NCBI GenBank assembly: GCA_963725235.1
Contig: CAVRXN010000002.1
Location: 94,964 to 158,963, forward strand
Length of the DNA: 64,000 nucleotides
Direction: 5' to 3'
Origin: an uncultured bacterium
GTDB taxonomy: Bacteria; Patescibacteriota; Minisyncoccia; UBA6257; 2-01-FULL-56-20
Both the position numbers and the translations under genes were made by a program. This document shows, one piece after another, positions 1 to 64,000 of the stretch (its first letter is position 1; every line of letters starts with the position of its first letter). The notes below the pieces were generated by a model, which searched no databases, was not told the origin of the DNA, and saw only the letters and a list, made by a program, of their open reading frames with translations.

Positions 1-1438
1 AAAATGCTTGACTTCGTGCCGGAAGAGCGGCTCGACGACGTTATCTATTTCGATCCGTCGAACATGGAGCATCCGTTCGCATTCAATCCGATGGAGCAGG
101 TTGGCACCGAGTTCCGCCATCTCGTCGCGTCAGGCATCATGAGCGTTTTCAAGAAAATCTGGATCGACGCCTGGTCGGCGCGCATGGAATATATTTTAAA
201 CAACACCTTGCTCGCGCTCCTCGAATATCCTGATTCGACATTGCTCGGCATTTTGCGGATGTTTTCCGACAAAGATTATCGCAAAAAGATTGTAGACGGC
301 TTGCAACGATCCGGTCATCAAGGGGTTTTGGCAAAAAGAGTTCGCGAATTACTCCCAGCGGCTCGAATCCGAAGCGCTTGCCGCGATCCAGAACAAAGTC
401 GGGCAGTTCGTTTCGAATCCTTTGATCCGCAATATTTTGGGCCAGCCGCGTTCAACTTTGAATATGCGGCAAATTATGGACCAGGGGAAAATTTTTATCG
501 TCAATCTGTCGAAAGGTAAAATGGGTGAGGATAATTCTACGCTACTCGGCGCCATGATCATCACGCGCTTGCAGCTCGCCGCGATGTCGCGCGTCGATGT
601 GCCGGAGGAAAAACGCCGCGACTTTTTCATGTACGTCGACGAGTTCCAAAATTTCGCGACCGGATCTTTTGCAAGCATCCTGTCCGAGGCGCGCAAGTAT
701 CATTTGTCATTAACCCTCGCGCACCAATATATCGGTCAGTTGGTCGCGACCGACGGCAGCACGAAAGTGCGCGACGCCGTGTTTGGCAACGTCGGCACGA
801 TCATCACATTCCGCGTCGGCGCCGAAGATGCCGAATTCCTCGAGAAAGAATTCGTGCCCGAGTTCGAACCCCAGGATCTCGTGAATCTCGCGAAGGCGAA
901 CATATACATCAAGTTGATGATTGACGGCGTGACCACCCGCCCGTTCTCCGCCGAAACGTTGCCGCCGCAGCATACGCCGTTGCAAACCCATCGGGATGTC
1001 ATCATCCAGAATTCCCAGCAGCGATACGGTACACCGCGGCGCGTTGTCGAAGAAAAGATTGCGAGTGAATGGCTGCAGCGTTCGGACACGGCCGTTGAAG
1101 AAAAGATCGAACGTCGCGGCGAGCGGCGGCTGGGGGACGTTTTGCGGCGCGATGGCGAACCGACGCGAGAGAGTCCGCCGCGTCAAAGCCCGCCGGCTTC
1201 ATATCAATCTTCATCGTCGCCCAAGGCGACAGCATCACCGCGTCCTGCATATAACAAGACGGTGTCCATACCGCCCGTATCTGTCCCATCGGCATCGATT
1301 CCGCCCGAGCAAGCGCCGTTGCCCGCTGCGCCACACAAAAAATTCGTTCCGCAAAAATCCAATGTCGATATCGAAGCCCTGCGCCGCGCCATTAACGAAT
1401 CATTAAAAAAGCAGCAGGATAATGGCGGCGGCCAATGA
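1..1438 (+). CDS. Type IV secretion/conjugative coupling ATPase (VirD4/TraG/TraD family), C-terminal portion; 5'-partial at window edge, one frameshift near nt ~300 (ORFs 4..519 and 422..1438)
   Basis: Frame 2 reads ...GFWQKEFANYSQRLESEALAAIQNKV...KIFIVNLSKGKMGEDNSTLLGAMIITRLQLAAMSR...FFMYVDEFQNFATGSFASILSEARKYHLSLTLAHQYIGQL..., the DEFQNF / TraG-D_C style C-terminal module of coupling proteins. The frame switch falls at a G4T4/A5 homopolymer stretch. P/S-rich tail. Confidence 0.6.
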
Positions 1439-2109
1439 AGCGGTTTCACATCATCACGATCTTCCCAGAAATATTCGATTCGTATCTCGGCGAATCGCTG
1501 TTTAAGCGCGCGCGCGCGAAGAAAATTGTTTCGGTAGCGACATACGACCTACGCGCTTTTTCGCGTGACCGGCATCAGAAAGTGGACGACCGGCCATTTG
1601 GCGGTGGGCCGGGAATGGTTTTTAAAGTGCAGCCGGTCTATGACGCCGTGGCGCATATTAAAAATAAATTAAAAAAATCAGGGGGCACACGAGCGGGCAG
1701 TCGCCGCCGCGTCCGTGTCATTCTCTTTTCGACCCGCGGCAAAAAGCTCGACGCGCCAGCCGCCCGCCGTTTATCAAAATACGACGACCTTATTTTTATC
1801 TGCGGGCGCTATGAAGGCGTCGATGAACGCGTGGCGCAGCATATAGCCGACGAGGAAATCTCGATTGGCGATTACATCTTATCGGGCGGCGAATTGCCGG
1901 CAATCGTGACGATCGAAGCGGTCAGTCGGTTCGTGTCCGGATTTCTCGGCAAGGAAGAATCGCTCGAGGAGATAAATGGATCATTTGAAACGTACACGCG
2001 GCCGGAGGTATTTATATCTAAAAAAGGCGCTAAAAAGTGGCCGGTGCCGAAAGTTTTACTATCGGGCGACCATAAAAAGATAGAGGAGTGGCGCCGGAAA
2101 ACACTTTAG
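1435..2109 (+). CDS. trmD: tRNA (guanine37-N1)-methyltransferase TrmD
   Basis: MKRFHIITIFPEIFDSYLGESLFKRA...DDRPFGGGPGMVFKV...RYEGVDERV; canonical TrmD SPOUT motifs; ATGA overlap with the upstream gene. Confidence 0.9.
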   Translation: MKRFHIITIFPEIFDSYLGESLFKRARAKKIVSVATYDLRAFSRDRHQKVDDRPFGGGPGMVFKVQPVYDAVAHIKNKLKKSGGTRAGSRRRVRVILFSTRGKKLDAPAARRLSKYDDLIFICGRYEGVDERVAQHIADEEISIGDYILSGGELPAIVTIEAVSRFVSGFLGKEESLEEINGSFETYTRPEVFISKKGAKKWPVPKVLLSGDHKKIEEWRRKTL

Positions 2110-2137
2110 AAAGATTTAATCTCGCTTTGGTATAGTG
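2105..2137 (+). promoter_or_regulatory. Conserved upstream motif TTTAGAAAGATTTAAT-TCG-N6-TATAGT (copy 1, directly upstream of the ComEC-like gene)
   Basis: 16/16-nt identity plus TCG and TATAGT blocks shared with 15580..15612, which lies upstream of abiEi. Confidence 0.35.
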
Positions 2138-2142
2138 GTTGC

Positions 2143-5374: not shown

Positions 5375-5948
5375 ATGGACACCCTCGTCTTCGACATCGA
5401 AACACAAAACTTTTTCACCGACCCGGGCGTCGGCTGGGATAACTTTGCCGCATTAAAAATCTCCGTCGTCGGCGTCTATTCATATGCGCGCGATGAGTAT
5501 CTCGTTTTTGAAGAACATGAGATGGGCGAACTCGCTGAACTTTTCGATCAGGCAAATCGCATCATCGGTTTCAGCATGAACAGCTATGACGTTCCGGTTC
5601 TCAACCATTATTTCCAAAAAGTGGGCGGATGCCGAATATTTGGAACATGGAACGCATCGACCTGTTGCAGGAGATCGAGATGATCGCGCGACATGAAAGT
5701 CAGCTTGAGCCGGCTCGCGGAAGCGAATCTTGGCGTAAAAGAAAGATCGAAAAGGTTCCGAGGCGATTGCACTGTACCGCGATGGGAAGATGGATGAACT
5801 TAAAGAATATTGCCTAAAAGATGTCCGTCTGACGAAGGAGCTCTATGACCTTTCGCGCAAACAAAATTTTTTGATGGTGCCGGGCAAAAATACGGACGAG
5901 ACGCGTAAGATCCAGTTTGCGAACATCGCTCCAGCGGCGTTGCTATAA
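5375..5948 (+). CDS. RNase H-like 3'-5' exonuclease (YprB/PolB-exo-like), frameshifted (at least 2 shifts)
   Basis: MDTLVFDIETQNF...IIGFSMNSYDVPVLNHYFQK... continues in other frames (...ERIDLLQEIEMIARHE...KLSRLAEANLGVKKIEKGSEAIALYRDGKMDELKEYCLKDVRLTKELY...). One shift falls at an A5 run (ccaaaaag). Confidence 0.55.
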
Positions 5949-7389: not shown

Positions 7390-10055
7390 ATGCCAAACTT
7401 CCATCGTTTCACAATAAAAGCACAGGAGGCCTTGCAGAATGCGCAGGAGATCGCGGCAAAGAAGAATCACGGCGAACTGAAAGCGCTACATCTGCTCGCG
7501 GCGCTTATTGAAGACGAACAGTCGCTCGTCATTCCGGTTCTCGAGCGTTGCGGCGTCAATCTTAGAAAAGCTCGATGAGGAAATCGATGTCGAGCTCGAT
7601 CGCATCCCGCCGATAATGTCGCAACTCGAACGTCGGCCAGCTCTATCTTTCGCAGGAATTAATGAAGGTGCTCGACCAGGCGGCGAAAATCGCGGCTCAG
7701 CAAAAGGATGAGTTTGTTTCATGCGAACATTTATTGCTTGCGATCATCGATGTCCGGCGGAACCGCGAAATCGGTGCTCGAAAAGTTCGGCGTGCGACGC
7801 GAATCCGCATTCCGAGTTTTGGCGCAGCTTCGCGGCTCGACCCGCGTCATGGATGAAACGCCGGAATCGAAATTCCAGGTTCTTGAAAAATATGCGATCA
7901 ATCTGAGCGAGCGAGCAAAGAAGGGCGAACTCGATCCGGTCATCGGCCGCGAGGAAGAATTGCGCCGGCTGATGCAGGTGCTTTCACGCAGAACTAAGAA
8001 TAACCCATGCTTGATCGGCGAACCGGGCGTTGGAAAAACGGCGATCGTTGAAGGGCTTGCGCAAAGAATCGCTTCCGGCGACGTCCCGGAACTCTTGAAA
8101 GGAAAGCAGGTCTTGATGCTCGACCTCGGCTCGCTGATTGCCGGAACAAAGTTCCGCGGCGAGTTTGAAGACCGGTTGAAGGCCTTTATGCGCGAAGTAA
8201 AAAACGCCGCCGGCCAAATTATCTTATTCATTGACGAAATCCACACGATCGTCGGCGCAGGCGCTGCCGAGGGCGCTGTTGATGCGTCAAACCTATTAAA
8301 ACCCGCGCTCGCGCGCGGCGAACTGCACGCAATCGGCGCGACCACGATCCGCGAATACCAGAAATATATAGAGAAAGATGCAGCGCTCGAGCGCCGTTTC
8401 GCGCCGATTATGGTTGAAGAGCCAACAATCGAGGACTCGATCGCGATCCTGCGCGGCTTGAAAGAGAAATATGAAATCCATCATGGCATGCGCATCAGCG
8501 ATGAAGCGATCATCGAAGCGGTCAACTTGTCAGCGCGGTATATAACGGATAGATTTTTGCCGGACAAAGCCGTCGATTTGATCGATGAAGCCGCCGCAGC
8601 GCGTCGCCTCGAGTCCGAAAGCTTGCCGAAAGAGCTCGACCACATCCGCCGCGAGATCACCAAGCTTGAGATCGAAAAGCAGGCGCTTAACGAAAGAAGG
8701 TGAAAAAGGCAAAGAGCGGATCAAGGAGATCGACGTCGCCCTCGCAAAATTAAAAGAAGATAACGACGAAATCTCGGCCAAATGGCATTCGGAGAAGATA
8801 AAATTCGAGACGCTGCATCAGCTGCGGCAGAAAGTGGATAACCTGAAGCGTGAGGCAGAGATGGCGGAGCGGGAAGGTAATCTCGAACGCGTGGCGCAGA
8901 TTATCTATGGCGAACTGCCGCAGGCGGAAAAGGATTTCCAGATGTTTGAGAAGAAGAATTTTGGCGCGACCGCTACAACGCGATCGAAAAGGGCGAAAAC
9001 TGCCGGCGCGAATGTCTGCCGACGACCGTTTCCTGAAAGAAGCGGTCGACAAAGAAGATGTCGCCGCAGTCGTCGCCGTCTGGACCGGCATTCCGTTAAA
9101 GCGAATGCTCGAAACCGATACCGACAAGCTGATTCGGATCGAAGAAGTACTTCGCGGCCGCGTCATCGGCCAGGAAGAAGGCATCGGCGCGGTCGCATCG
9201 GCGCTCCGCCGCTCGCGTGCCGGCCTTTCCGATGAAAACCGCCCCATCGGCTCATTCATGTTCCTCGGACCAACCGGCGTCGGTAAAACCGAACTCGCAA
9301 AAGCGCTCGCCGAGTTTATGTTCAATGACGATAAAGCGCTCGTCCGGATCGATATGTCGGAATATATGGAGCGTCACGCCGTCAGCCGCTTGATCGGTTC
9401 GCCGCCGGGCTACGTGGGCCACGAAGAAGGCGGTCAGCTGACCGAAATTCTCCGCCACCGGCCATACAGTTTGATCCTATTCGACGAAATCGAAAAGGCA
9501 CATCCGGAAGTGTTTAACCTGCTCTTGCAGGTGCTCGACAACGGCCGCTTGACGGACAGCAAGGGGAAAACGGTCAACTTCAAGAACTCGATCATCATTA
9601 TGACGTCGAACGTCGGCAGTGAATATCTGAAGGCGATGTCACGCATCGGTTTCAGTGCGCCGAACGAAACGCCAGAAGAAGGGGATTATCGCGAGCGCGT
9701 ATTGGAAGCGCTCCGCCACAGCTTCCGCCCGGAATTCCTGAACCGCATCGATGAAGTCGTCATTTTCAACCCACTCCGCAAGCAGGACATCGAAAAAATC
9801 ATCGACATCCAACTCGACCTGATTAAGGCACGCCTCGAAGATCAGCATGGTATAAAGTTCGAAATCGACCCGGCCGCGCGCGCATATCTTGCAAAAGAAG
9901 GCTTTAGCGCAGAGTACGGCGCCCGTCCGTTGAAGCGAATGCTCCAAAAGGTTATCCTTGATAGGTTGGCGGATAAGATCATCCGCGGCGAAACCAAAGA
10001 TGGCGGCAAAGTTAAAGTCAATTTTAAGGCAAATTCACTGGTCTTTACTCCTTAG
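7390..10055 (+). CDS. clpB: ATP-dependent chaperone ClpB (Hsp100), frameshifted into at least 4 ORF pieces (7390..7578, 7508..7711, 7662..7856, 7708..8703, 8850..10055)
   Basis: Clp N domain ([19 protein letters not shown]), NBD1 ([20 protein letters not shown]), M-domain coiled coil, NBD2 ([17 protein letters not shown]...[10 protein letters not shown]). One frame break lies next to an A4 run. Confidence 0.85.
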
Positions 10056-11858: not shown

Positions 11859-14800
11859 ATGAGTATAGCTACAAAAAAATGGGCTTCGATAGCGCTCACG
11901 GTGTACCACAGTTTTGTGGGCAGCGGGAGTTGCTTCGTTGCCTCTCGCGAATGCACAGACGACGGCTGACCTTCAGGCTCAGATCGCGGCTTTGCTCGCG
12001 CAGATTCAACAGCTGCAGGCTCAATTGGGACCTACTTCGAGCACAACAACGTCAATGACTTCGTGCTATCCGTTTTCCAGCGACCTCACCGTTGGTTCAA
12101 CTGGCGCGGCAGTGACGGCGCTCCAGCAGATGCTGATTGCAAAAGGATACTTGACGGCGGTCTCCGCTCCGACCGGCTACTTTGGTGCTTTGACCCAGGC
12201 GGCGGTCGGCAAGTGGCAGGCGGCGAACGGCATCTCGCCGACAGCTGGTTATTTCGGTCCTAAGATCACGGGCGTTCTACGCATTCGACATGCGTAGGTA
12301 CGACGGCACGACGACACGGTACGACTGGCACGGCGGCGGTACAGTCGACGGCTCCGGCAACGGGTCTCTCGGTCAGCTTGGCTTCCGATAACCCGGCAGC
12401 TGGTTCGCTCATCACGAGCGCTTCGGTGGCAACGGTGCGGCTCGCGTTCCGGTTTTGGCGGTGAATTTCACTGCTGGAAACTCGGGCGCGGTCACGGTCA
12501 CGGGAGTTAACTTCCAGAAGACCGGCGTCTTGTCTGACAGTTCAGTTTCTGGCGCATACTTGATCCAGAATGGCCAGGTTATCGCCCAATACAATTCGAT
12601 CAGCAATGGCGTGATCAGTTTCTCCGGTTTGAATCTTTCAGATTCCGGCAGGCCAGACCGAGACGTACCAGCTCGCGATCGACGTTGCTGGCGGTCTCTC
12701 GGCGGGTAACACGACGGGCTTTTCTTTGAACAGCGCGTCTGATGTCACCGCATGGGATGCCAACAACAATGCGATAACGCCGACCGGCGCCTTCCCGTTG
12801 ACGGTAATACGTTCACGGTAACGTCCGTCAGCAATCCGTCGCTCGCTACCTCTCGGTCACTTCTTCCTCAATCGGAACGACGGTGACGGCGGGAACGCAG
12901 GGCAACATCGTCGGCGCATTCAACTTCTACGGTTCAGAACAAGCCGTTGTGGTTGAATGGCATCGAACTTCCACGTTATCGGTTCGGCTAATATGACGAA
13001 CCTCCAGAACGTGAAACTCTTGATCAATGGCACGCAGGTTGGCGCGACACTTGCCGTCGGTTGGTCAGAACAACATTGCTTACTTCAACCTGACGTCCGC
13101 TCCGGCGAAATTGAACACGGGTTCGAACAACGTCCAGATCTTAGCGGATGTCACGGGTTCGCCGTCATTCAACTTCCAGTTGGAAATCTTGAACGGCTAT
13201 GATGTCCTTGCGGTTGACAGCCAGTACAACGTTCCGGTCTCCGTATCGATTGACGGCGGCGGTTGATGCGCAGGTGACGATCCAGGCAGGTCAGACGACG
13301 ACTTCGCAGGATACTTCGACCCCGACTGGCAACATTGCCAAGGGTGTGTCGCAGGTTACTCTCGCGAAGTTTGACGTCTATGCGTCCGGCGAGCCGACCA
13401 AGGTCAAGTTCCTTGACTTCGACGTTGGTCTTCACGGGCGTGACGACCTCGACTCCGAACATGTTGCCATCGCCAACTTGGTGAAGAACGTCAACATCAC
13501 GGATGATTCCGGTCAGCAGGTTGGCACGACGATTAATACTCCTCCGTCCGGCAATTCGTGCGCCCAGATGGCGTCAGGTTCCGGTTACACCGGCGCTGCG
13601 AACGGCTCCTACGAACGGAACGATTACGTTCGGTAGCGGTAACCTATGTTGACTGTTTCGGTACTCCGCGTTCACCGATCAACTATGTCATCCCGGCGAA
13701 CACGACTCGCGTCTTGTCGCTCAAGGCTGACATCCAGTCGACGGCGAGCTTCCAGACGGTGACGGCGAACTTGCTCTCTGAATCCGGCCAGAACAACTTG
13801 CAGGGCCAGATTTCGAGCCAGTCAGACAGTTCATCCGGTGCAAACGGCAGCGCTCTCACGCTTTCGAACTCTAGTTTGACGGCGGCGCAGAACACGGCCT
13901 TGGCACCCAGAGCTTGTCGAAGGGTTCGAGCGAACCAGGAAATTGGTTCGTACGCTCTTACGGCGGCTTCGGCTGAAGGCGTGAACGTCAATACGGTCAC
14001 CGTCACGGTGAACGGCACTCGCTTGCGAGCTACCTCCAGAACTTGAAGTTGATCGTGAATGGTGCGCAGTTCGGTACAACCCAGCCGACAGTTATCGCTG
14101 GTGCGTACACGTTCTCGGGTTCTCCGTTCAACATTCCGGCAGGGTTCGACGGTTAACGTGAACATCTTATGCTGACATCAACTCGTCGGCTATCGCGACC
14201 ACGACAACCGGCGGTTTGACCTCGCTCACGGGTCTTAGCGGTTCGGGTGCGATTTCGAACGCTCGATTTCGCTTTCCCCGGGTCCAGCGTTCAGGGCCAG
14301 AACTTGACGATTTCCGGTGGTTCGTCTATCACGGTTACGGCCAACCAGGGTTCCAATCCTTCAGTTGGCCAGCTCTCGATGGGAACGACTGGCAATACGC
14401 TTGCTGCCTTCAACTTCCAGGAAACGGCGAACATAGAGAACATCAAGGTTACCAGCTTAATGTTGTTGACTTGTTGACGACCTCGACCTTCGGTCAGGCG
14501 ACCAACACGGCGAACGTTTTGCCTTCGTTCAACACCTTACGTTGTGGAACGGTGCGACTCAGGTCGGCGGTCAGGCCAACTATGTTGGTACAACGACAGT
14601 CAATGGCGCAGCGCCTTCCTCTACCAGTTCCAGTTCGGCAATTCGAGTCAACGTTCATTATTCCTGCGCAACGGCACGCTCTCGCGTTACCTTGAAAGGT
14701 AATGCGAATGCGTACACGGCGGGCAATACGACGGACGGTTCGATCCATACGTTCGAGGTTGCGACTTCGACGAACGTCGGTAGCGTGACCAACAACGTCG

Positions 14801-15440
14801 TACAGTTCGACGGTCGTTGCGTTGGGTCAGACATCCAACCAGCCGGCGACAGTCACTGTCTCGAGCGCCGCTGGTACTCGCAGACGATCTTGCGTAACGG
14901 CTTGGTCTTCTCGGCTGCTGCAGCTCGGCGCGAACATCGAACCGATCGAAGAGCATCGGCGACCAGCTCGCAACCTTGACCTTCACGCCGGGTAAACGGC
15001 GGATCGCTCGCGGTTAAACACGGTGACCATCAAGTTCTCGGGAAACGCGCTCGCTTCGAGCACGACTGCGCAGATGACGGCATTTGCAACGAGCACGTAT
15101 CTCTTGTTGAACGGCACGCAGTACTGCCCGGCGAGTTCGACGAATCAGCGCGACAGGAGCGATAGTGACGTGGAACTTCCTACTCGAGCCAGGGTATCAG
15201 CGGCTTCCAGGTTAACGGTAGCCCGGTAACATTTACCTTGGTCGGCAACACCACCCAGACTTGAACGTTGCGGGTAGAACAATGCGTTCAGCTTGGCTGC
15301 TTCGATTGCTGCGAATACGTCCATCCAGTACACGGATGGTACGGATTCGAACATCACGACCGCAGCGGCATCGGCTTGCCGGCATCCGATCATCACTCCG
15401 CTCCAGATCTTCAACGACCAGTTCCAACAGAACCCTAGTT
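11859..15440 (+). CDS. Very large secreted/cell-surface repeat protein with an N-terminal peptidoglycan-binding (PG_binding_1-like) domain; heavily fragmented by frameshifts (>15 ORF pieces)
   Basis: Signal-peptide-like start (MSIATKKWASIALTV...). PG-binding motif GSTGAAVTALQQMLIAKGYL...GYFGALTQAAVGKWQAANGI. Long T/S/N/G/V-rich beta-like repeats with a recurring (A/S)FNF(Q/Y) motif at ~12915, ~13170 and ~14410. End coordinate approximate. Confidence 0.5.
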
Positions 15441-21046: not shown

Positions 21047-21290
21047 GCTTTTATTATATCATTTTTAAATTGGCAACTGGTTGAGCGGGTAAGGGGAGTC
21101 GGACCCCTATCTGTACCTTGGCAAGGTACCATAATAGCCGCTATACGATACCCGCAGCTATTTGGAGTCCATTATACATCGGTAAATCGAGAACGCAAGA
21201 TTAATGCACCCCTGTGGATTACTCCTCTATTGCGCCGTCGCGATGTGCGGTATACTTAAATTAAATAAACGTTAAGGGAACAACGTAAAA

Positions 21291-22265
21291 ATGGTACAAG
21301 AACAATTAACAGATTATATTTCGTCACAGACGAAGCTCGGCGTTTCGCGGGATGCGATTAAGTCGGCGCTCGTTTCGGCGGGATGGGTTGCGGGGGACGT
21401 CGAGGATACGTTAAAAAAAGTGGGAGCAGGCCCTGCGGCGATGCCAGCGGGAGCAATGTCTACAGGGGTAGCGGTGGGGGCGAAGCCGGCGCAGAGCAGC
21501 CCGATGGCGTCGACCAATTCGTCAGCGAGTCCACAAACAATCAAGATGAGCGATCTCATTTCATCACCATTTTCAGGAAGCTCGGCGAAGCCAACATCCG
21601 CGGCGTCGGCAACAACAATCTCGGCATCCGCCGCCGCCGCGACCGCATCGAAGTTCGGCGGCACGATTAAAGGAAATACGTTCAGCGCGTCGCCGGCTGG
21701 AACTGCGGTCGCTGCCCCCCACGATTCGATGGAAAAAAGTGGCCACGGAATTGGAACACTCGTCATAGAAATCATCGGCATTGTTATCATCCTCGGCCTC
21801 GGCGGCCTCGCGTGGTATTTCTATTCCGGGAACGCGGCACTCGCAGCAAAAGTGGCATCACTCAATACCCAGAGTGCATCCGTGACGTCGCAGCTCGCGA
21901 CGCTGCAATCCCAGCTGACCGCGTCGAGCACGGCCGATGCATCGCAGATCTCGAATCTTACCGCGGCGAACGCAGATCTCGCGCTGAATTTATCATTCTA
22001 CGCAATCCCGCTCGGCACGCCGACTGCAACAGCCGCAACGCCACTCCCGGTAACGATTAGCGGATCGCTTTCCGGTGGCGGTAAGGTGCCGTATTCGATA
22101 TTAACCCCACGTGGTGCAAAAATCTTTATCACGAACTCTTCCGACGCGACGGTCGGGCCAGAGCTGAAAGCTTCAGTCGGCCAGACGGCCCAACTTTCCG
22201 GAACATATATTCAAGGGTCCGACGAAATGACGGTCAGCTCGGTTGCGACGACGACAACGCAATAA
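21291..22265 (+). CDS. Hypothetical single-pass membrane protein (small N-terminal helical domain, low-complexity linker, TM helix, extracellular S/T/A-rich C-terminal domain)
   Basis: TM segment IGTLVIEIIGIVIILGLGGLAWYFY; no family recognised. Confidence 0.45.
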   Translation: MVQEQLTDYISSQTKLGVSRDAIKSALVSAGWVAGDVEDTLKKVGAGPAAMPAGAMSTGVAVGAKPAQSSPMASTNSSASPQTIKMSDLISSPFSGSSAKPTSAASATTISASAAAATASKFGGTIKGNTFSASPAGTAVAAPHDSMEKSGHGIGTLVIEIIGIVIILGLGGLAWYFYSGNAALAAKVASLNTQSASVTSQLATLQSQLTASSTADASQISNLTAANADLALNLSFYAIPLGTPTATAATPLPVTISGSLSGGGKVPYSILTPRGAKIFITNSSDATVGPELKASVGQTAQLSGTYIQGSDEMTVSSVATTTTQ

Positions 22266-22278
22266 AGGCATAAGCGCT

Positions 22279-22773
22279 TTAATCGAGTAACTGGAAATTT
22301 TTTAATGTTTCTTTGTAGATATTGAGCGCCCGCTCAGCGAGGTCGCGCTTCAATTTGAATGTCGGTTGGTGGACGATATCATTCCGCAAACGATGTGCTT
22401 GCCAAATCTGGTCAAGATTCGGCAATTGTTCCGGTTTTAAGCTCTTCAACCGGTCGCCGAGATGCATGCCTCGAACGCCGCTTTCGCGAAGCGCTTCTTC
22501 GAGCAATTTATCCGCTTCGATAACGGCGACTTTCAAGTCGTTCTCGTCGCCTTTATAAAAGTGCGCCTCAATCTTCGCCCACTCTTTTCGCGCGGTCTCT
22601 TTTGGAAGATTCGTTTTTAACACGACATGGCGGAACCGCTCGACTTTCAGGCCGAGCCAGTTAGTTTTGATAATAATGACAACGATTGCGGCGATGAGCA
22701 GGGCGGAAACGACGGCGCCGATGAATTCGAGAATGCCGAGGTTCGAAATATAAATATCAGCCAACTGGTTCAT
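22279..22773 (-). CDS. Hypothetical membrane-anchored protein, co-oriented immediately downstream of gatA
   Basis: N-terminal TM helix (ILEFIGAVVSALLIAAIVVIIIK) plus a charged helical domain. Confidence 0.4.
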   Translation of the reverse strand: MNQLADIYISNLGILEFIGAVVSALLIAAIVVIIIKTNWLGLKVERFRHVVLKTNLPKETARKEWAKIEAHFYKGDENDLKVAVIEADKLLEEALRESGVRGMHLGDRLKSLKPEQLPNLDQIWQAHRLRNDIVHQPTFKLKRDLAERALNIYKETLKNFQLLD

Positions 22774-22775
22774 GG

Positions 22776-24245
22776 TTACATTCTCTCATAGAACTGGCCG
22801 ATTCCCAAGATATCCGCTTCGTGCCATTTTTTGCCGATCAGCTGGAAACCGACCGGCAGTTCACCGGGCGCGAGATCGCGCGACAGTTTAGTTGGGATCG
22901 AGATAGCGGGGAGGCCGGCGAGTTTCAAGGGGATAGTGAAGATATCGGCAAGATACATTGCGAGGGGGTCGTCAGCTTTCTCGCCAATTTTAAATGCCGC
23001 GGTTGGCGCGACCGGCGTCAGCAAAACGTCGACTTCTTCGAATGCCTTGTCAAAATCCTGCTTGATAAGCGTTCGCACGCGCTGGGCTTTATCATAGTAG
23101 GCGTCGTAGTAACCGGATGACAATACAAAAGTTCCGAGAATGATGCGGCGTTTCGCCTCCGCGCCGAAGCCGGCGCCACGCTGTTTGAAATAAAGATCAT
23201 TGAGGTTGTTGCCCTGCGCTTCCGCCGCCGGGTTGCGCGCGTAGCGGATGCCATCGTAGCGCGCGAGGTTCGAGCTCACCTCCGCCGGAACAATAATATA
23301 GTAGGTCGCGAGCGCGTAGTTCGTATGCGGGAGCGAGACCTTTTTGAATTTCATGCCGAGCGATGTCAGCTTTTCGATCGCATGTTCGACTTTGCGCGTG
23401 ACGAGCTGGTCTGTGCCACTGATGAAATATTCACCCGGAAGGCCGATGGTTAATTTTTTAATATCTTCGAGCTTAGGATTTGTTAAATTTTCATAAAATT
23501 TTTCGGTGCTGGTCGTTGCTTGGCTCGTCGCATCAAGCGGATCCGCGCCGGCAATACCGGCAAATAAAATCGCCGCATCCTCGACGGTTTTCGTTATCGG
23601 GCCAACCTGGTCGAGCGACGAAGCCATTGCCATGACGCCGGATCGCGAAACCGCGCCGTAGGTCGGTGTCATGCCGACGACGCCGCAGAAGCTCGCGGGT
23701 TGGCGGATCGAGCCCCCAGTGTCCGAACCGAGCGCGGCGATGGCGAAATGCGCGGCGACGGCCGCAACCGAGCCACCGCTGCTGCCGCCGGCGACGCGCG
23801 TGAGGTCGTGCGGATTGCGCGTTACCCCAAATGCGGAATTCTCGGTTGATGATCCCATAGCGAACTCATCCATATTCGCCTTCCCGAGAAAAACCGCTCC
23901 CGCCGATTTTAATTTTGTTATAACGCCCGCGTCATACGCCGCGACATAATTTTCGAGGATTTTCGACGCCGCAGTCGCCGGCAAATCCTTGATCAAAATA
24001 TTGTCTTTGATCGCGAGCGGGACGCCGGCGAGCGGTGCAATTGGTTCGTTTTTCGCAACAGCAAGATCCACCGCTTCCGCTTCGCGAACCGCCGATTCCT
24101 CGGCAAGCGACAAAAATGCATTGATCTCGCCGTTGTGCTCTTTAATATGCGCGAACGATGCCTGGGTTATCTCGAGTGCACTAAATTTTCCGGCCAGCAG
24201 GCCGTCATGAAATTTTTTAATAGTTAAGTCGCGGAGCGGTTCCAT
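22776..24245 (-). CDS. gatA: Glutamyl/aspartyl-tRNA(Gln/Asn) amidotransferase subunit A
   Basis: Amidase signature GGSSGGSVAAVAA; 489 aa, full length. Confidence 0.95.
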   Translation of the reverse strand: MEPLRDLTIKKFHDGLLAGKFSALEITQASFAHIKEHNGEINAFLSLAEESAVREAEAVDLAVAKNEPIAPLAGVPLAIKDNILIKDLPATAASKILENYVAAYDAGVITKLKSAGAVFLGKANMDEFAMGSSTENSAFGVTRNPHDLTRVAGGSSGGSVAAVAAHFAIAALGSDTGGSIRQPASFCGVVGMTPTYGAVSRSGVMAMASSLDQVGPITKTVEDAAILFAGIAGADPLDATSQATTSTEKFYENLTNPKLEDIKKLTIGLPGEYFISGTDQLVTRKVEHAIEKLTSLGMKFKKVSLPHTNYALATYYIIVPAEVSSNLARYDGIRYARNPAAEAQGNNLNDLYFKQRGAGFGAEAKRRIILGTFVLSSGYYDAYYDKAQRVRTLIKQDFDKAFEEVDVLLTPVAPTAAFKIGEKADDPLAMYLADIFTIPLKLAGLPAISIPTKLSRDLAPGELPVGFQLIGKKWHEADILGIGQFYERM

Positions 24246-24289
24246 ATATGAGATTTAATAAAATTTTAATTTCACGGGCGCGCGATAAG

Positions 24290-24637
24290 CTATTCAAAAA
24301 CAGGCGGCACTTTTAAGTAGCCGTCTTTCGACTCCGGGAAGGCCTCGACGCCGGCACCCTGGTTCGTGTTCTCGCGGCCGCCTTCGCGTTCGTCGCCACT
24401 CCGCGGGCTATCGACAGTATCTTCATCCGTCGCCCCATCCTCGCGAAACACATTTCGCAGATCCGTCCCGCCCGTCATGGGCGCAACCGCCGATGTATCG
24501 AGCTTCTGCAGTTCATTAAAATATTCTAAAATCGCGCCCAAATCGCGGAGCAGTTTTTCTTCTTCGCCTGGCTCGAGCTCGATGCGCGCGAGCTTCGCCA
24601 AGTGCTCCAACTCACGCTTGCCGATGGTGGATGACAT
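24290..24637 (-). CDS. gatC: Glu/Asp-tRNA amidotransferase subunit C, with an acidic C-terminal extension
   Basis: MSSTIGKRELEHLAKLARIELEPGEEEKLLRDLGAILEYFNELQKLDTSAVAPMTG; start chosen at the internal Met (reverse-complement ATG at 24635-24637). Confidence 0.75.
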   Translation of the reverse strand: MSSTIGKRELEHLAKLARIELEPGEEEKLLRDLGAILEYFNELQKLDTSAVAPMTGGTDLRNVFREDGATDEDTVDSPRSGDEREGGRENTNQGAGVEAFPESKDGYLKVPPVFE

Positions 24638-24707
24638 GAGACAATCGTAGCGCATTGCGTTTTTCTTTTCAATTCGGTAAGGTGGCAACAGATGCAGTTT
24701 TACATTT

Positions 24708-33621: not shown

Positions 33622-33866
33622 GGATTCTCAACCGACTATAATTAGGATTAATGAAAGCTTAAAACGGTTTCCTTTCGTGAGGAAGGGAAAGTCCGTTTTT
33701 TGCGTTTTGCGCTGTATTAGATAACGTTAGGAGTGTTTTGGGAAGGGCTGATTTCGGCGGCCCGCATGAGGAACCAGAACATGTGCGACCAACAACTTAA
33801 TATGTTTTTAATAAATCGTCGGGTTTTGCTCGGCAAATATAAATTAAATTTTAATTAAAACGTCGC

Positions 33867-40712
<6,846 letters not shown>

Positions 40713-48462: not shown

Positions 48463-49918
48463 GTGCCATATATGGATTACCATCCCACCATCGGCCTCGA
48501 GGTTCACGCGGAGCTCAAGACGCGGACAAAAATGTTCTGCGATTCGCTGAATGATCCGGACGAGAAGCATCCGAACGTGAACGTCTGTCCGGTGTGTCTC
48601 GCGCATCCGGGGACGCTGCCCGTGCCGAACAAGCAGGCGATCGAGTATGTGTTGCGCGTCGGTCTCGCGACGGGCGGGACGCCGAACGCGCAGACGAAGT
48701 TCGACCGCAAAAATTATTTCTATCCCGACCTGCCGAAGGCATATCAGATTTCGCAGTCGGGCCAGCCGCTCGTGGCTGGTGGTATGCTACGCGATATAAA
48801 AATAAATCATATTCATCTCGAAGAGGATGCTGGTGCGCTCGCGCGACACGACGGAAGGATTTTCGCTCGTCGATTATAATCGCGCGGGTGTGCCGCTGAT
48901 GGAGCTTGTGACGGAGCCGGACATGCATACGGCTGAGGATGCGGTCGCATTCATGCGCGAGCTGCAGTTGGTCCTGCGCTATCTCGGCGTTTCGGATGCG
49001 GATCTCGAGCGCGGGCAGATGCGTGCGGATGCGAATATTTCGATTTCGCCAACGACTGGTGAGGGTGCGGGCAAACTTGGCACGCGCGCCGAAGTGAAAA
49101 ATTTAAACTCGTTCAATTCCGTCGCGCAGGCGATCAATTACGAGATTCGCCGGCAAACGGAATTGCTCGAGCGCGGCGAAACGGTTGCGCAGGAAACGCG
49201 CGGCTGGGATGATGCAAAACAGAAAACGACGTCGCAGCGCTCAAAGGAGGAGGCGCAGGATTATCGCTATTTCCCGGAGCCGGATATTCCGCCATTCGAT
49301 ACGAGTGTATTTGATATAGAGCGGTTGCGGGCGGAGTTGCCGGAATTGCCCGCCGCGCGGCGCACGCGGTTCGCCGCCGAATACGGACTCGATGCGAAGC
49401 AGACGGAGATTTTGGTAAGCGAGCCGGCGCTGGCAAACTTTTTTGAGGAAGCGGTGTCGGAGCTGCGCGAGCAGATGCCGGATGAGTCAGCGCCAAAATC
49501 CGCCGTCGCGACGCTCTATAATTATTTAACATCCGACCTGCGCGGGTTGATGAATGCCGGCGCGACAAATTTCGCGGATTTGAAAATCACGCCGGAACAT
49601 CTAGCGCATCTCGCCGCGCTCCTCGAAGCGAAGAAGCTGACGAGCCGCCAGGCGAAGGACATCCTCGCGAAAATGTTCGAGACCGGTGCCGATCCGACCG
49701 AGATCGTCGCGAGCGAGAACATCGGCGTCTCGGATGACAGTGCCGAGATCGAAGCAGTCGTCGCAGCCGTTATCGCCGAAAACAAATCAGCCGCCGACGA
49801 TTACCGCCGCGGCAAGACAGCCGTGTTGCAGTTCCTCATTGGCCAGGCCATGAAAGCTTTGAAAGGACGTGCGCGGCCGGAGGTGCTGAAGGAGATGCTT
49901 GAGAAGGGGCTGGGGTGA
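48463..49918 (+). CDS. gatB: Asp/Glu-tRNA amidotransferase subunit B, one frameshift near 48845
   Basis: MPYMDYHPTIGLEVHAELKTRTKMFCDS...NVCPVCLAHPGTLPVPN...HLEEDAG | ...TTEGFSLVDYNRAGVPLMELVTEPDMHTAEDA...; frame break in a GCGCTCGCGCG stretch. Confidence 0.85.
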
Positions 49919-54997: not shown

Positions 54998-55345
54998 CTA
55001 CTCCCGAATGGATTTAATCCAACCTCCGAGCATTCGACCGATCTCGTCGGTCATTTCTTCAAGTTTCAGGTATTTCTTCATATCGATAACTTTCGCATCT
55101 TTTGCGAGGCGGAAGAATACTCGGAGGAGATTAAGTTTTGTGCTGACCTGTTTCAAGACGGGAATTTTCTCGGATTTATAAAGTTCGCTCGCAGCGAGGA
55201 TCCCTTCTATAACATCGAGGATAGTTTTCTCGGCGCGTTCCCAAATCGTATGCCGATCTTGTTTATTAATTCCGTTCCGGTAGCCATGGAAAAGCTGATA
55301 GAGATCGTACGATTTTTTAAAAATTGGAATATCGAAATTATCCAT
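54998..55345 (-). CDS. avd: DGR accessory variability determinant (Avd; four-helix-bundle protein)
   Basis: MDNFDIPIFKKSYDLYQLFHGYRNGINKQDRHTIWERAEKTILDVIEGILAA...; 115 aa, basic, on the opposite strand between TR and RT. Confidence 0.75.
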   Translation of the reverse strand: MDNFDIPIFKKSYDLYQLFHGYRNGINKQDRHTIWERAEKTILDVIEGILAASELYKSEKIPVLKQVSTKLNLLRVFFRLAKDAKVIDMKKYLKLEEMTDEIGRMLGGWIKSIRE

Positions 55346-55352
55346 TTTATTT

Positions 55353-56404
55353 ATGAAGGTATATCGCGATGTTTTTGATAGGATTATTAGTGTGGAAAGT
55401 ATTTTTGCCGCTTGGGATCAGTTTAAGCAGGATAAAAAGAATAGATCGGATGTCGCGAAGTTTGAGCAAAAGCTCGAAGAGAATTTGTTCCAATTGTGCC
55501 GCGATCTCAAGAATAAAAACTATCGTCATGGACCATATTACGGCTTTTATATCCATGACCCAAAGCAACGTCACATTCATAAGGCCACCGTCCGAGATCG
55601 TATTTTGCATCATGCCATTTTTTCGATTTTGAGCCCGATGTTTGAAGAGATGTTTATCTCGACGTCGTTTTCCTGCCGAGTTGGATTTGGAACGCACAGA
55701 GGCGTCGATATGCTCGCGCAGATGATTCGCAGAGTTTCGAAAAATGGCAGCCAGCAATGTTACGTTTTGAAATGCGATATTAAAAAATTCTTCGATAGTG
55801 TTGACCACGAGATACTCCTTAGCATTTTGAATCGGAGGGTCAAAGATGAAGACGCGGTGTGGCTCTTGCGCGAAATCGTAAAAAGTTACGTAATTAAACG
55901 AGAGAGAGAGAGAGAGTTCAAAGCCAAATTCAAAAAACTGGCATTCCAATCGGCAATTTGACTTCCCAGCTGTTCGCGAATGTCTACATGAATGAGTTCG
56001 ATCAATTCATTAAGCATGGTTTGCATATAAAACATTATGCCCGTTATACCGATGATTTTGCAATAGTGGCTTCGAGCCACTCTGAGTTAAAAAATCTTAT
56101 CGAACCGATAGAGCAATTTCTCGAAAGTCATCTGAAATTACAACTTCATCCGAAGAAAATTTCGGTCCGAACTATAAATCATGGCATTGATTTTCTTGGC
56201 TATGTAATATTTCCAGGCCATCGTTTGATTCGCACAAAAACCCGCAGACGAATTTTTAAAAAGTTCAAATTGAAAGTTGAGGCATATCGTTTGGGCCACA
56301 TTTCCGAAGATTTTTTGATGGCATCGCTCCGATCATATCTTGGCGTTCTGTCTCATGCAGATACTTATCATCTTGCGGAAGAGTTGAAAAATGCGCTATT
56401 ATAG
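55353..56404 (+). CDS. DGR reverse transcriptase, frame broken inside a (GA)8 tract at 55900-55916
   Basis: RDRILHHAIFSILSPMFEEMFISTSFSCRVGFGTH (compare Bordetella Brt RDRLVQHALCNI...YACRPDKGTH); GIPIGNLTSQLFANVYMNEFD (DGR hallmark); YARYTDDFAIV (YxDD). Confidence 0.85.
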
Positions 56405-59700: not shown

Positions 59701-59749
59701 CGCGCCGGAGGTGCTGCAGAAGTTTGTGGGGAAGAAGGTGATTGGGTAA
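59701..59749 (+). repeat. Direct repeat copy 2 (displaced, diverged serS 3' end remnant encoding PEVLQKFVGKKVIG*)
   Basis: GCGCCGGAGGTGCTGCAGAAGTTTGTGGGGAAGAAGGTGATTGGGTAAA. Confidence 0.7.
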
Positions 59750-60350
59750 AGTTGCTTTTTATTCTTGTTTATTTTATAACCAAAGCAGAGAAAGGCGGTT
59801 TATTCTCGATTTACAATTTGGAACGTTGCTTCGCAGGACTGATGTAGTTGTTAACGCAGAAGAAGGAGATTTAGGGCACGCGCTCGACAAGATTATCGGC
59901 TGTACTCTTTTCGTGTGGAGTTTAAACGGAGAGGGCATGAAAGGAATTGTTGTAGATTGTGACTCCGACGAAGTGAATCATGTTGGGGAAGAATACGGAG
60001 CCAATCGTCGCTTTCTCCAGGATGAAACTTACTTTTGTATCTACCAACACCCCGAAGGCGATCTCTACGACTGTGATTGCTGTCGAATCGACATAGGCAT
60101 ACTTCACACTGTGTGGCTTCTCGAAGACGGGTCGGGAAGAGTTCGCGATTTAAGTTTCGAAGCATTGCAGCGTACAGGAAAACATATCTTAACTCCTGGG
60201 CCGCATTGGCAGAGGGCAATTGCGTGCCAGTCCTGTGCAACTCGAGATCTCAGGATGTCTCGGCAGTATGGACGGAAGTCTCCACTATAAAAAGGATTTA
60301 AGCAGATGTTTAACTATCGGCGCCCACTGTATTAGCTGTGGCGCCTTTTT

Positions 60351-62209: not shown

Positions 62210-62251
62210 TTTCACGGTCCAAAATCGTGCATACTATAAATAGTAAATATC

Positions 62252-62898
62252 ATGGGAATCTTGCCGGTCATTAACTGCACGGACTTCGCCGGTGTGCAAA
62301 AAATTCTTGAAAAAACAAAAACGTTCCTGCCGGAAGGAAGCTTTTTGCACTGCGACATCGCCGACGGAACATTTACTTTTAATAAAACGTGGAACAATCC
62401 GACCGAGTGGGCGAATCTGCGCTCGCCGTACAATCTAGAAGTGCATCTGATGATCGATCATCCGGAGCGGCAGATCGAACCATGGATCGCGGCCGGCGCC
62501 CGTCGGTTCGTGATTTCATTCGAAACAATTAACGACGACTCGCTCGTCGCAATTTTCGACGCGTGCGATAAGCGCGGCGTCGGCGTCGCTTTGTCATCCA
62601 ATCCGGAAACGACGGTCGACCGCCTTGCGCCATATTTAAAACATTTTCCGATGTTCCATGTTTTATCCGTTCATCCTGGCTTACCCGGCCAGCCGTTTCT
62701 GCCATTAACGATCGAAAAAATTTCATGGCTCCGGCGCGAGTACCCGCATGCTATAATTGAAGTTGACGGTGGCATGAATGCCGAAACTGCGCGAACGGTC
62801 AAAAAGTGCCGGCGCCGACCTCATCGTCTCATCAAATTATATTTTCGGCGAGCGGCACCGATCCGAAATTCGCGTATGGGATTTTGAAACAGATTTAA
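62252..62898 (+). CDS. rpe: Ribulose-phosphate 3-epimerase, two frameshifts near the 3' end (one at an A5 run ~62800)
   Basis: ...LHCDIADGTF..., EVHLMIDHPE, GVALSSNPETT, FHVLSVHPGLPGQPF, IEVDGGMNAETA; the terminal ...GADLIVSSNYIF and ...SGTDPKFAYGILKQI* lie in other frames. Confidence 0.8.
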
Positions 62899-63773
62899 TG
62901 CGATTTTTAATGGAACATCTGACCGATAAAAAATTAAAGAATCTCGAGTTCATGGCGAACCGCCTGCGCCAGGACGTCATCGAAATGGTTTCGCACGCCG
63001 GCTCGGGGCATATCGCGGGGCCGCTCGACATGGCGGAAATTTTTACCGCGTTGTATTTTCATATTTTGAACCACGATCCGCAAAAACCGAACTGGCCGGA
63101 TCGCGACCGGCTCGTGCTTTCGAATGGCCACATTTGCCCGATCCAGTACGCTGCGCTCGCGCACGCAGGATATTTTAAAGTGGAGGAATTGAAAACGTTG
63201 CGCCAGCTCGGTACGCGCTTGCAGGGTCATCCGCATCGCGGCGTTTTGCCCGGCGTCGAAACGACGTCGGGCCCACTCGGCTCCGGCATTTCGCAGGCGA
63301 GCGGCATCGCGCTCGCGCGCGACGAATGGACGGTGCGTAAATGGCGAACGTACTGCCTAACCTCCGACGGCGAACACAACGAAGGCAACACCTGGGAGGC
63401 GATCAAGTTCGCCGGCAAGAATCGTCTCGAGCAACCTGACCGTCATCGTCGACCGCAACAACATCCAGATCGACGGCTTCACGGAAAACATCATGCCGCT
63501 CGAACCGTTCCGCGAGAAATATGAATCATTCGGTTGGCATGTGCTCGAGATCGACGGCCACAACTTCGAAGAAATCATCGCCGCCGTCGCCGAAGCGCGC
63601 GCGATCCACGAAATGCCGACCTGATCATCGCGCACACAATCCCGGGCAAAGGCGTCGATTTCATGGAGAACGATTATCTCTGGCACTCGAAACCGTTCAA
63701 GCCGGGCGAAGCGGAGAAGGCGCTTGCGGAATTGCGGACGCTTCGTGGTAGAATTAAAAGCGAGCACGAATAA
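62898..63773 (+). CDS. tkt: Transketolase N-terminal subunit (split Tkt), frameshifted (at least 2 shifts); start overlaps the rpe stop (TAATG)
   Basis: MRFLMEHLTDKKLKNLEFMANRLRQDVIEMVSHAGSGHIAGPLDMAEIFTALYFHIL...DRDRLVLSNGHICPIQYAALAHAGY...GHPHR...ETTSGPLGSGISQASGIALA...IIAHTIPGKGVDFMENDYLWHSKPF. Confidence 0.8.
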
Positions 63774-64000
63774 TCATGAAAGATAGTTAAATTTTGTTCT
63801 CGGGTTGGGTACGGCGATCATTCTCGGCGCGCTGATCATATTGGGCATCAAGGCATTTTATCCGGAGCCGGTAGCGCCGAACGTATCCGAGGATAACGCC
63901 AGTCGGCGCCGATCGTGCCGTGCGCTTCGAGCGGACATCCAGTGCCAGCAGAATAACGCGCAGCTCGAGGCGCAGCAGCAGGCCCAGCAAACGCCGCAGC

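What the first reader, a model, noticed from the sequence alone, without database searches (positions are those of the whole stretch)
1..64000. Pervasive +/-1 frameshifts in essential conserved genes, located at homopolymer runs: systematic indel error, not pseudogenisation
rpoB (at least 6 pieces), rpoC (at least 9), clpB (at least 4), gatB, rpe, the tkt N-terminal subunit, the VirD4-like gene, the RNase-H-like exonuclease and the giant surface protein are all split across frames. Interspersed long genes (gatA, murD, infB, thrS, serS, ftsW, the ComEC-like gene, the FN3 protein, the HD gene) are intact. Breakpoints I traced fall in A4-A5 or G4T4 runs (for example tcaaaaagtgcc in rpe at ~62800, ccaaaaagtggg in the exonuclease at ~5625, ggggttttggcaaaaag at ~320). 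No free-living or symbiotic cell can carry an rpoB/rpoC this fragmented. The pattern indicates uncorrected homopolymer-length errors from long-read or flow-based data. Gene calls and pseudogene counts for this contig are therefore unreliable, and any apparent gene loss should be discounted.
Basis: partly seen in the sequence, partly recalled or inferred. Interest (0 to 1): 0.6.

Follow-up and report, generated by a model that had tools for sequence, protein, structure and literature searches.

The report
Strain-mixing assembly artefact, not homopolymer errors
The broken rpoB/rpoC, clpB and other genes are an assembly artefact. An independent assembly of the same organism has these genes intact. 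The stray bases sit in patches where a second, related genotype was blended into the consensus, and they are not in homopolymer runs.

Summary
The fused rpoB-rpoC gene (33861-40709) needs 38 frame corrections: about 34 single extra bases, one 2-base extra and 3 missing bases. After correction it is 95.7% identical to an intact homologue and has no in-frame stop. ClpB, VirD4-like, GatB, Rpe, Tkt, the exonuclease, a reverse transcriptase and the surface protein are also split. GatA, MurD, IF-2, FtsW, SerS and others are intact.

The homopolymer claim fails. Only 1 of 34 extra-base events touches a run of 4 or more (1.5 expected by chance). Insertions that duplicate a neighbouring base are depleted.

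Logan contigs of run ERR11523662 carry the same organism. They match the window exactly over 17.1 kb of flanks. Inside rpoBC and VirD4 they have intact ORFs and differ from the window by 113 substitutions, mostly at third codon positions and AT to GC, plus 11 one-base insertions.

The contig is therefore a patchwork. Patches in conserved genes contain a GC-richer relative's alleles. Some SNPs there appear to have been written as both alleles in tandem, which gives +1 frameshifts.

The proposed mechanism, homopolymer-length error, does not. This is ordinary and of low biological interest.

The parts
129..847 (+). Divergent patch inside the VirD4/TraG-like gene. It has 11 substitutions and one extra C at 304 (TTG[C]AAC) relative to the independent assembly. 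Positions 848-3521 are identical.
   Evidence: L166 against the window. (TraG-D_C and TrwB Pfam hits). (the Logan contig has an intact 520-aa ORF).
5375..5900 (+). RNase_H_2-type 3'-5' exonuclease read through four successive frames. Shifts lie near 5621, 5648, 5690 and 5745. All appear to be +1. The first is ambiguous between the A5 run and the following G.
   Evidence: peptide coordinates by frame. (RNase_H_2 hit on the first piece). No close reference was available.
7390..10049 (+). clpB with five +1 frameshifts, near 7562, 7612-7641, 7754-7765, 8685-8690 (gcgCtta) and 9010-9012.
   Evidence: 12 ClpB references, up to 91% identity, 0 stops. (N-domain frames 0 to 1 to 2 to 0). (Pfam).
11893..15440 (+). 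Large secreted or surface protein (signal peptide, PG-binding-like N-terminus, Ig-like repeats) broken into about a dozen pieces across all three frames. Both shift directions appear.
   Evidence: stop-free segments by frame. Not verified against a reference.
33861..40709 (+). Fused rpoB-rpoC gene (about 2265 codons) with 38 frame-disrupting events: about 34 single extra bases, one 2-base extra and 3 missing bases.
   Evidence: frameshift-aware alignment to 14 references. (DNA alignment to L161). (candidate positions). (at least 120 intact fused homologues).
33971..40607 (+). Extent of the foreign-allele patch within rpoBC. The first difference from the independent assembly is at 33971 and the last at 40607. 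There are 52 substitutions and 6 insertions in 33971-35533. There are 50 substitutions and 4 insertions in 39869-40607. There are zero differences in 29476-33970 and in 40608-47240.
   Evidence: L164 and L165 against the window. (76/19/7 substitutions at codon positions 3/1/2; 67 AT-to-GC against 16 GC-to-AT).
48463..49915 (+). gatB split once, at 48830-48835 (context CTGGTG, not a homopolymer).
   Evidence: frameshift-aware alignment. (GatB_N profile positions 2-128 in one frame and 130-270 in the next).
55302..56401 (+). Reverse transcriptase (RVT_1) split into two frames near 55958.
   Evidence: profile positions 8-107; profile positions 110-205.
62252..63800 (+). rpe has two +1 shifts, at about 62794-62806 and about 62840. 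The transketolase N-terminal subunit has a +1 shift at 63431 (cgtctcgaGcaacc) and a -1 shift near 63620.
   Evidence: distant references. (three-frame translation). (Pfam).
21130..24680 (.). Example of a clean segment. It is 100% identical (0 mismatches, 0 gaps over 3551 nt) to a contig assembled independently from run ERR11523662, and it contains intact gatA.

Best explanation
The window is part of a long contig of a Paceibacteria (Patescibacteria/CPR) genome whose consensus is a patchwork.

Most of it is the exact sequence of one population, called A here. In several patches, mostly in conserved genes (rpoBC, clpB, gatB, rpe/tkt, VirD4-like), reads of a second, GC-richer relative (B) were close enough to be recruited. 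The consensus or polishing step then wrote B's alleles into A's backbone.

At roughly one SNP in ten, the new allele was added without removing the old one. Both alleles then stand in tandem, for example TAT|ATG becoming TAT-C-ATG and AAG CAG becoming AAG C-G-AG. Each such site adds one base and shifts the frame by +1. A few sites lost a base instead.

Shown: the patches, their substitutions, the extra bases, and intact genes in an independent assembly.

Inferred: the read-recruitment cause, the tandem-allele mechanism, and the existence of B as a distinct organism.
For: 1. **Same organism, independent assembly.** Logan contigs of ERR11523662 match the window with 0 differences over 848-3521, 21130-24680, 29476-33970 and 40608-47240. 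They carry uninterrupted ORFs for VirD4 (520 aa), the rpoBC N-terminus (553 aa) and the rpoBC C-terminus (279 aa).
2. **Real second genotype.** Inside the patches the window differs by 113 substitutions. For rpoBC, 76/19/7 fall at codon positions 3/1/2, and 67 are AT-to-GC against 16 GC-to-AT. This is selection-shaped variation and not sequencing noise.
3. **Insertions track SNP count.** The ratios are 6/52, 4/50 and 1/11 in three separate patches.
4. **Inserted bases differ from their neighbours.** All 11 insertions checked against population A are a single added base next to A's base. Ten of the 11 differ from both neighbours.
5. **Departure from random insertion.** Neighbour-duplicating insertions are depleted (2/34 against 24.8% expected, p=0.004). 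Sites where either of two different adjacent bases can be removed without changing the protein score are enriched (21/34 against 43%, p=0.02). C before a TTG/TTA leucine codon, the synonymous CTR/TTR site, is strongly enriched (8/34 against 2.9%, p=5e-6).
6. **Corrected gene looks functional.** 0 stops in 2269 codons and 95.7% identity to an intact homologue.
7. **Long contig of origin.** The exact GatA, YceG and TrmD proteins are also on record on a 0.2-1 Mb contig, which fits a long-read or hybrid assembly.
8. **Literature.** Long-read metagenome assemblers collapse genomes of about 97.6-98.7% identity into consensus contigs (PMC8302730).
Against: - Genotype B itself was not recovered. No protein of 97% identity or more was found. 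The tandem-allele reading therefore rests on statistics and on residues seen in relatives, not on a three-way alignment.
- The codon phase of the extra base is not significantly different from random. Seven of 34 events are uniquely at codon position 2, against about 11 expected.
- The surface-protein patch is not a conserved gene and shows both shift directions. It may have another cause, such as repeats or hypervariability.
- The sequencing platform and the pipeline are unknown.
Confidence: 0.8

Rival explanations
1. These are uncorrected homopolymer-length errors typical of nanopore, 454 or Ion Torrent data, scattered over the contig.
For: The frameshifts are artefacts. Three events lie at or beside A5 runs: 5616-5621, 62801-62805 and 40014-40020. 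The contig of origin is probably long-read derived (0.2-1 Mb block).
Against: - Only 1 of 34 rpoBC insertions touches a run of 4 or more, against 1.5 expected by chance. Of 50 such runs, 49 are unaffected.
- That one event is not a run-length change.
- Neighbour-duplicating insertions are depleted.
- About 90% of events are insertions.
- The example at about 320 is really at 304, in TTG[C]AAC.
- There are 0 errors in 17.1 kb of flanks that contain many runs.
- The events coincide with SNP patches.
Confidence: 0.03
2. The patches are stretches taken from a few noisy long reads of a related strain, for example by gap filling or bridging where the accurate assembly broke. The extra bases are then random raw-read insertion errors and not tandem alleles.
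For: - The patches carry another genotype's alleles and an insertion-biased indel load.
- The Logan contigs of population A break inside rpoBC at 35533 and 39869, where a bridge would be needed.
- ClpB homologues of relatives are mostly partial and sit on short contigs.
- The codon phase of the insertions is not significantly non-random.
Against: - Random raw-read noise should also give random substitutions. Instead 75% of substitutions are at third codon positions, and amino-acid identity to A is 97%.
- Neighbour-duplicating insertions, the commonest long-read insertion type, are depleted (p=0.004).
- A specific synonymous-site context is enriched (p=5e-6).
Confidence: 0.12
3. The indels are real. 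This would be a decaying genome or strain in which rpoBC, clpB and other genes are pseudogenes, or one that tolerates them through pervasive +1 recoding (slippage at CUU-G-type sites or ribosome hopping).
For: - The insertions are present in the deposited sequence.
- Eight of 34 sit at C-TTG. CUU is a classic +1 slippery codon in prfB and Ty1 (own knowledge).
- A coexisting subpopulation cannot be strictly excluded without reads.
Against: - The same population assembled independently has intact ORFs with identical flanks.
- At least 120 relatives have uninterrupted fused rpoBC of about 2250 aa.
- There are 0 in-frame stops, and the substitutions look strongly purifying. This is incompatible with a gene old enough as a pseudogene to collect 38 indels.
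- An insertion bias is the opposite of the deletion bias of bacterial pseudogenes (own knowledge: Mira, Ochman and Moran 2001).
- 26 of the 34 sites have no slippery motif.
Confidence: 0.01
4. The substitution patches are genuine homologous-recombination imports from a GC-richer relative into conserved genes of this strain. Only the indels are technical.
For: The pattern is sharp-edged tracts of 0.7-6.6 kb at 1.5-7% divergence, inside otherwise identical sequence and confined to conserved genes. This is the classical look of recombination imports.
Against: - The indels occur only inside these tracts and scale with their SNP count. That ties the indels and the substitutions to one process.
- A technical process that hits only recombinant tracts is not expected.
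- The independent assembly from the same run shows no such tracts.
Confidence: 0.04

Closest known systems
Homopolymer-length indel errors of nanopore, 454 or Ion Torrent assemblies
   Same: Artefactual one-base indels split long conserved genes and inflate pseudogene counts.
   Different: Here the events are not in runs. They are about 90% insertions of a base unlike its neighbours. They are confined to patches and accompanied by 1.5-7% real substitutions.
Collapsed-strain (strain-oblivious) consensus in long-read metagenome assembly, as described for Flye and Canu in the Strainberry paper (PMC8302730)
   Same: Closely related genomes are merged into one consensus where they are similar enough. 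The result matches neither strain and can carry SNV and indel 'misassemblies'.
   Different: Here the collapse is local, limited to conserved genes of two organisms that are otherwise too divergent to merge. The specific outcome, SNPs rendered as tandem alleles that give +1 frameshifts, is my inference and is not documented in the papers read.
Pseudogenes of decaying genomes (for example Mycobacterium leprae or recent endosymbionts; own knowledge)
   Same: Essential-looking genes are interrupted by frameshifts.
   Different: There are no in-frame stops and the substitution pattern is purifying. The bias is towards insertions. The gene is intact in the same population's independent assembly.
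Programmed +1 ribosomal frameshifting (prfB CUU-UGA, Ty1 CUU-AGG, Euplotes; own knowledge)
   Same: Single extra nucleotides in the coding sequence, some next to CTT/TTG leucine codons.
   Different: There is no conserved site or stimulator. The shifts are absent from all orthologues and from the same organism's other assembly. There are 38 sites in one gene.

Membership tests
Homopolymer-length sequencing error | Indels lie inside mononucleotide runs, typically of 4 or more | tested here: not met
   1/34 events touch a run of 4 or more, against 1.5 expected by chance. 49/50 runs in rpoBC are unaffected. The one hit is not a run-length change.
Homopolymer-length sequencing error | The inserted or deleted base is the same as the adjacent base | tested here: not met
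   2/34 are neighbour-duplicating, against 24.8% expected even for uniform random insertion (p=0.004). 10/11 insertions verified against the Logan contigs differ from both neighbours.
Homopolymer-length sequencing error | Errors occur wherever runs occur along the contig | tested here: not met
   0 differences in 17,141 nt of flanks, against 38 events in 6.8 kb (P about 5e-42).
Collapsed-strain / cross-recruited chimeric consensus | An independent assembly of the same population lacks the indels and has identical flanks | tested here: met
   L163-L166 from ERR11523662 are 100% identical in the flanks and have intact ORFs inside the patches.
Collapsed-strain / cross-recruited chimeric consensus | Indel patches coincide with substitutions that look like real inter-strain variation | tested here: met
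   102 substitutions, with 76/19/7 at codon positions 3/1/2 and 67 AT-to-GC against 16 GC-to-AT. Corrected protein is 97% identical to population A.
Collapsed-strain / cross-recruited chimeric consensus | Reads over the patch separate into two haplotypes, neither carrying the extra bases | not testable with these tools
   No read data are available. The search for genotype B among proteins found nothing at 97% identity or more.
Pseudogene (genome decay) | Relaxed selection: in-frame stops and substitutions spread evenly over codon positions | tested here: not met
   0 stops in 2269 corrected codons and 95.7% amino-acid identity to P0001. Third-position excess.
Programmed +1 frameshifting | The shift site is conserved in orthologues and has a slippery motif | tested here: not met
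   At least 120 relatives have uninterrupted ORFs. Only 8/34 sites share a C-TTG context. The shifts are absent in the same organism's other assembly.

The most novel reading that the evidence does not exclude
A real subpopulation might coexist with the intact strain and truly carry dozens of single-base insertions in rpoBC, clpB and other core genes. It would either be a very recently dead lineage or depend on pervasive +1 recoding. My evidence shows an intact copy in the same sample. Without reads it cannot strictly exclude a second, insertion-bearing molecule.
Probability: 0.01. Interest if true: 0.9.

Novelty: not a real feature. Interest (0 to 1): 0.12.

Why it matters
The value is for data hygiene. 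Gene calls, pseudogene counts, completeness estimates and any phylogeny using rpoB, rpoC, clpB, gatB or tkt from this contig are compromised. The frames are broken, and the sequence in those patches is also a blend of two organisms.

The usual remedy would not fix it. Homopolymer-aware polishing and frameshift-corrected translation both leave the foreign alleles in place. Haplotype-aware re-polishing is needed. The rest of the contig, as far as it was checked, is base-perfect and need not be discounted.

Tried and rejected
1. **Plain tblastn of a reference RpoBC.** It blurred the breakpoints. I replaced it with my own frameshift-aware protein-to-DNA dynamic programme (onward).
2. **Codon-phase test for tandem alleles.** Seven of 34 events are uniquely at codon position 2, against about 11 expected. 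This is not significant, so it gives no support either way.
3. **Search for genotype B.** I queried with the corrected 553-aa N-terminus and made cluster look-ups of the Logan partial proteins. Nothing was found at 97% identity or more. A three-way alignment was therefore impossible.
4. **Exact look-ups.** ComEC, SerS, MiaA, HAD, the YkuK-like protein and ORF 61403-62209 all failed. As a result the exonuclease, gatB, rpe/tkt and clpB patches could not be compared with the independent assembly.
5. **Literature search for ERR11523662.** No paper was found. The platform and pipeline remain unknown.
6. **The recurrent GCTTG context as a motif-specific basecalling error or a CUU slippery site.** The motif is no more frequent in the window than in the intact homologue (5.6 against 5.7 per kb). 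The one case verified against the Logan contig is ACC-TTG in A against ACG-C-TTG in the window. This fits adjacent synonymous SNPs better.
7. **Rfam scan.** It found only the tRNA-Gly gene.
8. **Surface protein.** I did not resolve it for lack of a usable reference.
Full report
**What the window is.** The closest genomes to the rpoB fragment are Candidatus Paceibacterota/Patescibacteria MAGs. Related loci come from soil and peat metagenomes. Pfam scans of the long ORFs give a typical CPR gene set:
- TrmD, ComEC, GatA, a MurD-like ligase, IF-2, FtsW, YceG, S6, SSB, L11, MiaA, SerS and a ThrS-type synthetase;
- several mobile or defence genes, including AbiEii, an rve integrase, a reverse transcriptase, a Fic/RhuM protein and an ANT(6)-type adenylyltransferase.

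**Checking the observation.** I wrote a protein-to-DNA aligner that allows +1 and -1 frameshifts. I ran it with 14 reference proteins.
- *rpoBC.* rpoB and rpoC are one fused gene in this lineage. L001 has a single 2284-aa ORF. At least 120 relatives have 2240-2320-aa proteins carrying both Rpb2 and Rpb1 domains. In the window this gene spans 33861-40709 and needs 38 frame corrections. This number is stable across references of 73% to 95.7% identity. Nucleotide alignment to the intact homologue L161 gives the same sites: about 34 single extra bases, one 2-base extra and 3 missing bases. After correction there are no in-frame stops in 2269 codons, and identity to P0001 is 95.7%.
- *Other split genes.* ClpB has five shifts, all +1. 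VirD4-like has one. GatB has one. Rpe has two and Tkt-N has two. The exonuclease has three or four, all apparently +1. A reverse transcriptase has one. The surface protein has about a dozen, which I did not verify.

The frameshift part of the observation therefore holds and is understated.

**The homopolymer claim does not hold.** For each extra-base event I listed every position whose removal gives the best local protein score.
- With the closest reference, 17 of 34 events have an extra base that differs from both neighbours.
- Only one candidate interval touches a run of 4 or more, against 1.5 expected for random intervals. Of the 50 such runs in rpoBC, 49 carry no event.
- Compared with simulated uniform random insertions, insertions that duplicate a neighbour are depleted (2/34 against 24.8%, p=0.004).

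**The decisive evidence: an independent assembly.** Exact-protein look-ups found contigs assembled by Logan from sequencing run ERR11523662 that carry the same organism.
- *L163* equals window 21130-24680 with no difference.
- *L164* equals 29476-35533. It has no difference up to 33970. Inside rpoBC it has 52 substitutions and six one-base insertions in the window.
- *L165* equals 39869-47240. It has no difference from 40608 onward. Inside rpoBC it has 50 substitutions and four insertions.
- *L166* equals 1-3521. It has 11 substitutions and one insertion, all within 129-847 in the VirD4-like gene, and nothing after 847.

In all three patches the Logan contigs have uninterrupted ORFs of 553, 279 and 520 aa. 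The extra bases are therefore absent from another assembly of the same population, and the flanks are base-identical over 17.1 kb. At the rpoBC event rate, about 95 events would be expected in those flanks. None is seen (P about 5e-42).

**What the patches are.**
- The 102 rpoBC substitutions fall 76/19/7 on codon positions 3/1/2.
- Sixty-seven are AT-to-GC and 16 are GC-to-AT.
- The corrected window protein is 97% identical to the Logan protein. It is further from P0001 than the Logan protein is (95.8% against 98.6%).

This is real variation shaped by selection. It comes from a second, GC-richer relative and is not sequencing noise. The window is thus population A almost everywhere, with patches in conserved genes that carry another genotype's alleles. 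The frameshifts occur only in those patches.

**How the extra bases most likely arise (inference).**
- *Appearance.* All eleven insertions that can be compared with A look like A's base plus one different base beside it. Examples are GT-A against GTCA, TAT-ATG against TATCATG, AAGC-AG against AAGCGAG and AAAG-TA against AAAGATA. Replacing A's base with the added one gives a synonymous codon or a residue seen in relatives in most cases.
- *Scaling.* Insertions scale with SNP count across patches (6/52, 4/50, 1/11).
- *Departure from random insertion.* Sites where either of two different adjacent bases can be removed without cost are enriched (21/34 against 43%, p=0.02). A C in front of a TTG/TTA leucine codon, the synonymous CTR/TTR site, is strongly enriched (8/34 against 2.9%, p=5e-6). 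ClpB shows the same gcgCtta context.
- *Interpretation.* I read this as SNPs between A and B being written as both alleles in tandem by a consensus or polishing step. An insertion was accepted and the matching deletion was not.
- *Why conserved genes.* These are the only places where B's reads are similar enough to be recruited to A's contig. Long-read metagenome assemblers are known to collapse genomes of about 97.6-98.7% identity into a consensus (PMC8302730).
- *Long contig of origin.* The exact GatA, YceG and TrmD proteins are also on record on a 0.2-1 Mb contig. The Logan contigs of A break inside rpoBC (35533 and 39869). ClpB of relatives is mostly partial on short contigs. Both fit k-mers being shared with relatives in these genes.

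**Limits.**
- Genotype B was not recovered. The tandem-allele mechanism is therefore statistical, and the codon-phase test was uninformative.
- The surface-protein patch is not a conserved gene and shows both shift directions. It may have a different cause.
The third (about 320) is wrong by 16 nt and is not in a run.
- The platform and the pipeline are unknown.

**Rivals.**
- *Homopolymer error* is refuted for nearly all events.
- *Random noise from a few long reads of B* explains the patches. It does not explain the clean, selection-shaped substitutions, the depletion of neighbour-duplicating insertions, or the synonymous-site context.
- *Real pseudogenes or recoding* are contradicted by the intact copy in the same run, by at least 120 intact orthologues, by the absence of stops, and by an insertion bias opposite to the bacterial deletion bias (own knowledge).
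- *Genuine recombination imports* could mimic the SNP tracts. They would not explain why indels occur only there.

**Verdict.** This is an assembly artefact and not a biological feature.

Noticed in passing
window 33861-40709; L001 163-7014; L161 409-7215; P0001-P0120: rpoB and rpoC form a single fused ORF of about 2250 aa in this Paceibacteria lineage. At least 120 relatives have one protein with both Rpb2 and Rpb1 domains. A short linker (...[31 protein letters not shown]...) joins the two parts. Fusions are known from Helicobacter and Wolbachia (own knowledge). Two searches of the held library found no paper describing one in CPR bacteria.
   Followed up: partly
window 41033-41800 (minus strand); L165 5708-6461: A DUF7718 and DUF5647 gene pair sits between rpoBC and rpsF in this organism. 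In the 95%-identical relative L161, rpsF follows rpoBC directly. This looks like a small inserted two-gene module, possibly toxin-antitoxin-like.
   Followed up: no
window 55302-56401: A reverse transcriptase (RVT_1) is split into two frames near 55958. Its type (retron, DGR or group II intron) was not determined. Rfam found no intron RNA nearby.
   Followed up: partly
window 57700-60300: A low-GC island (41% against 52% for the window) carries an ANT(6)-type streptomycin adenylyltransferase (57728-58567) and a RhuM/Fic protein (58716-59699). It is probably horizontally acquired. A resistance-type gene is unusual in a CPR genome.
   Followed up: no
window 47239-48279 (minus strand): An IS-type integrase (rve, HTH_32) lies next to gatB. 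The independent Logan contig L165 ends exactly at 47240, as expected for a repeated element.
   Followed up: no
window 16284-17033: An AbiEii-family nucleotidyltransferase toxin (type IV TA / abortive infection) follows an unannotated ORF at 15680-16333 that may be its AbiEi partner.
   Followed up: no
one search hit list (ClpB homologues): ClpB proteins of related Patescibacteria in public data are overwhelmingly 'partial' and sit on 1-6 kb contigs. This gene routinely breaks short-read metagenome assemblies, which fits k-mers being shared among co-occurring relatives.
   Followed up: no
window 3989-4693, 4824-5342, 50983-51963, 56391-57725, 61403-62209: Exact-protein look-ups failed for five apparently intact genes, while neighbours of similar kind succeeded. 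This could be only a different start-codon choice. It could also mean silent foreign-allele patches without frameshifts.
   Followed up: no
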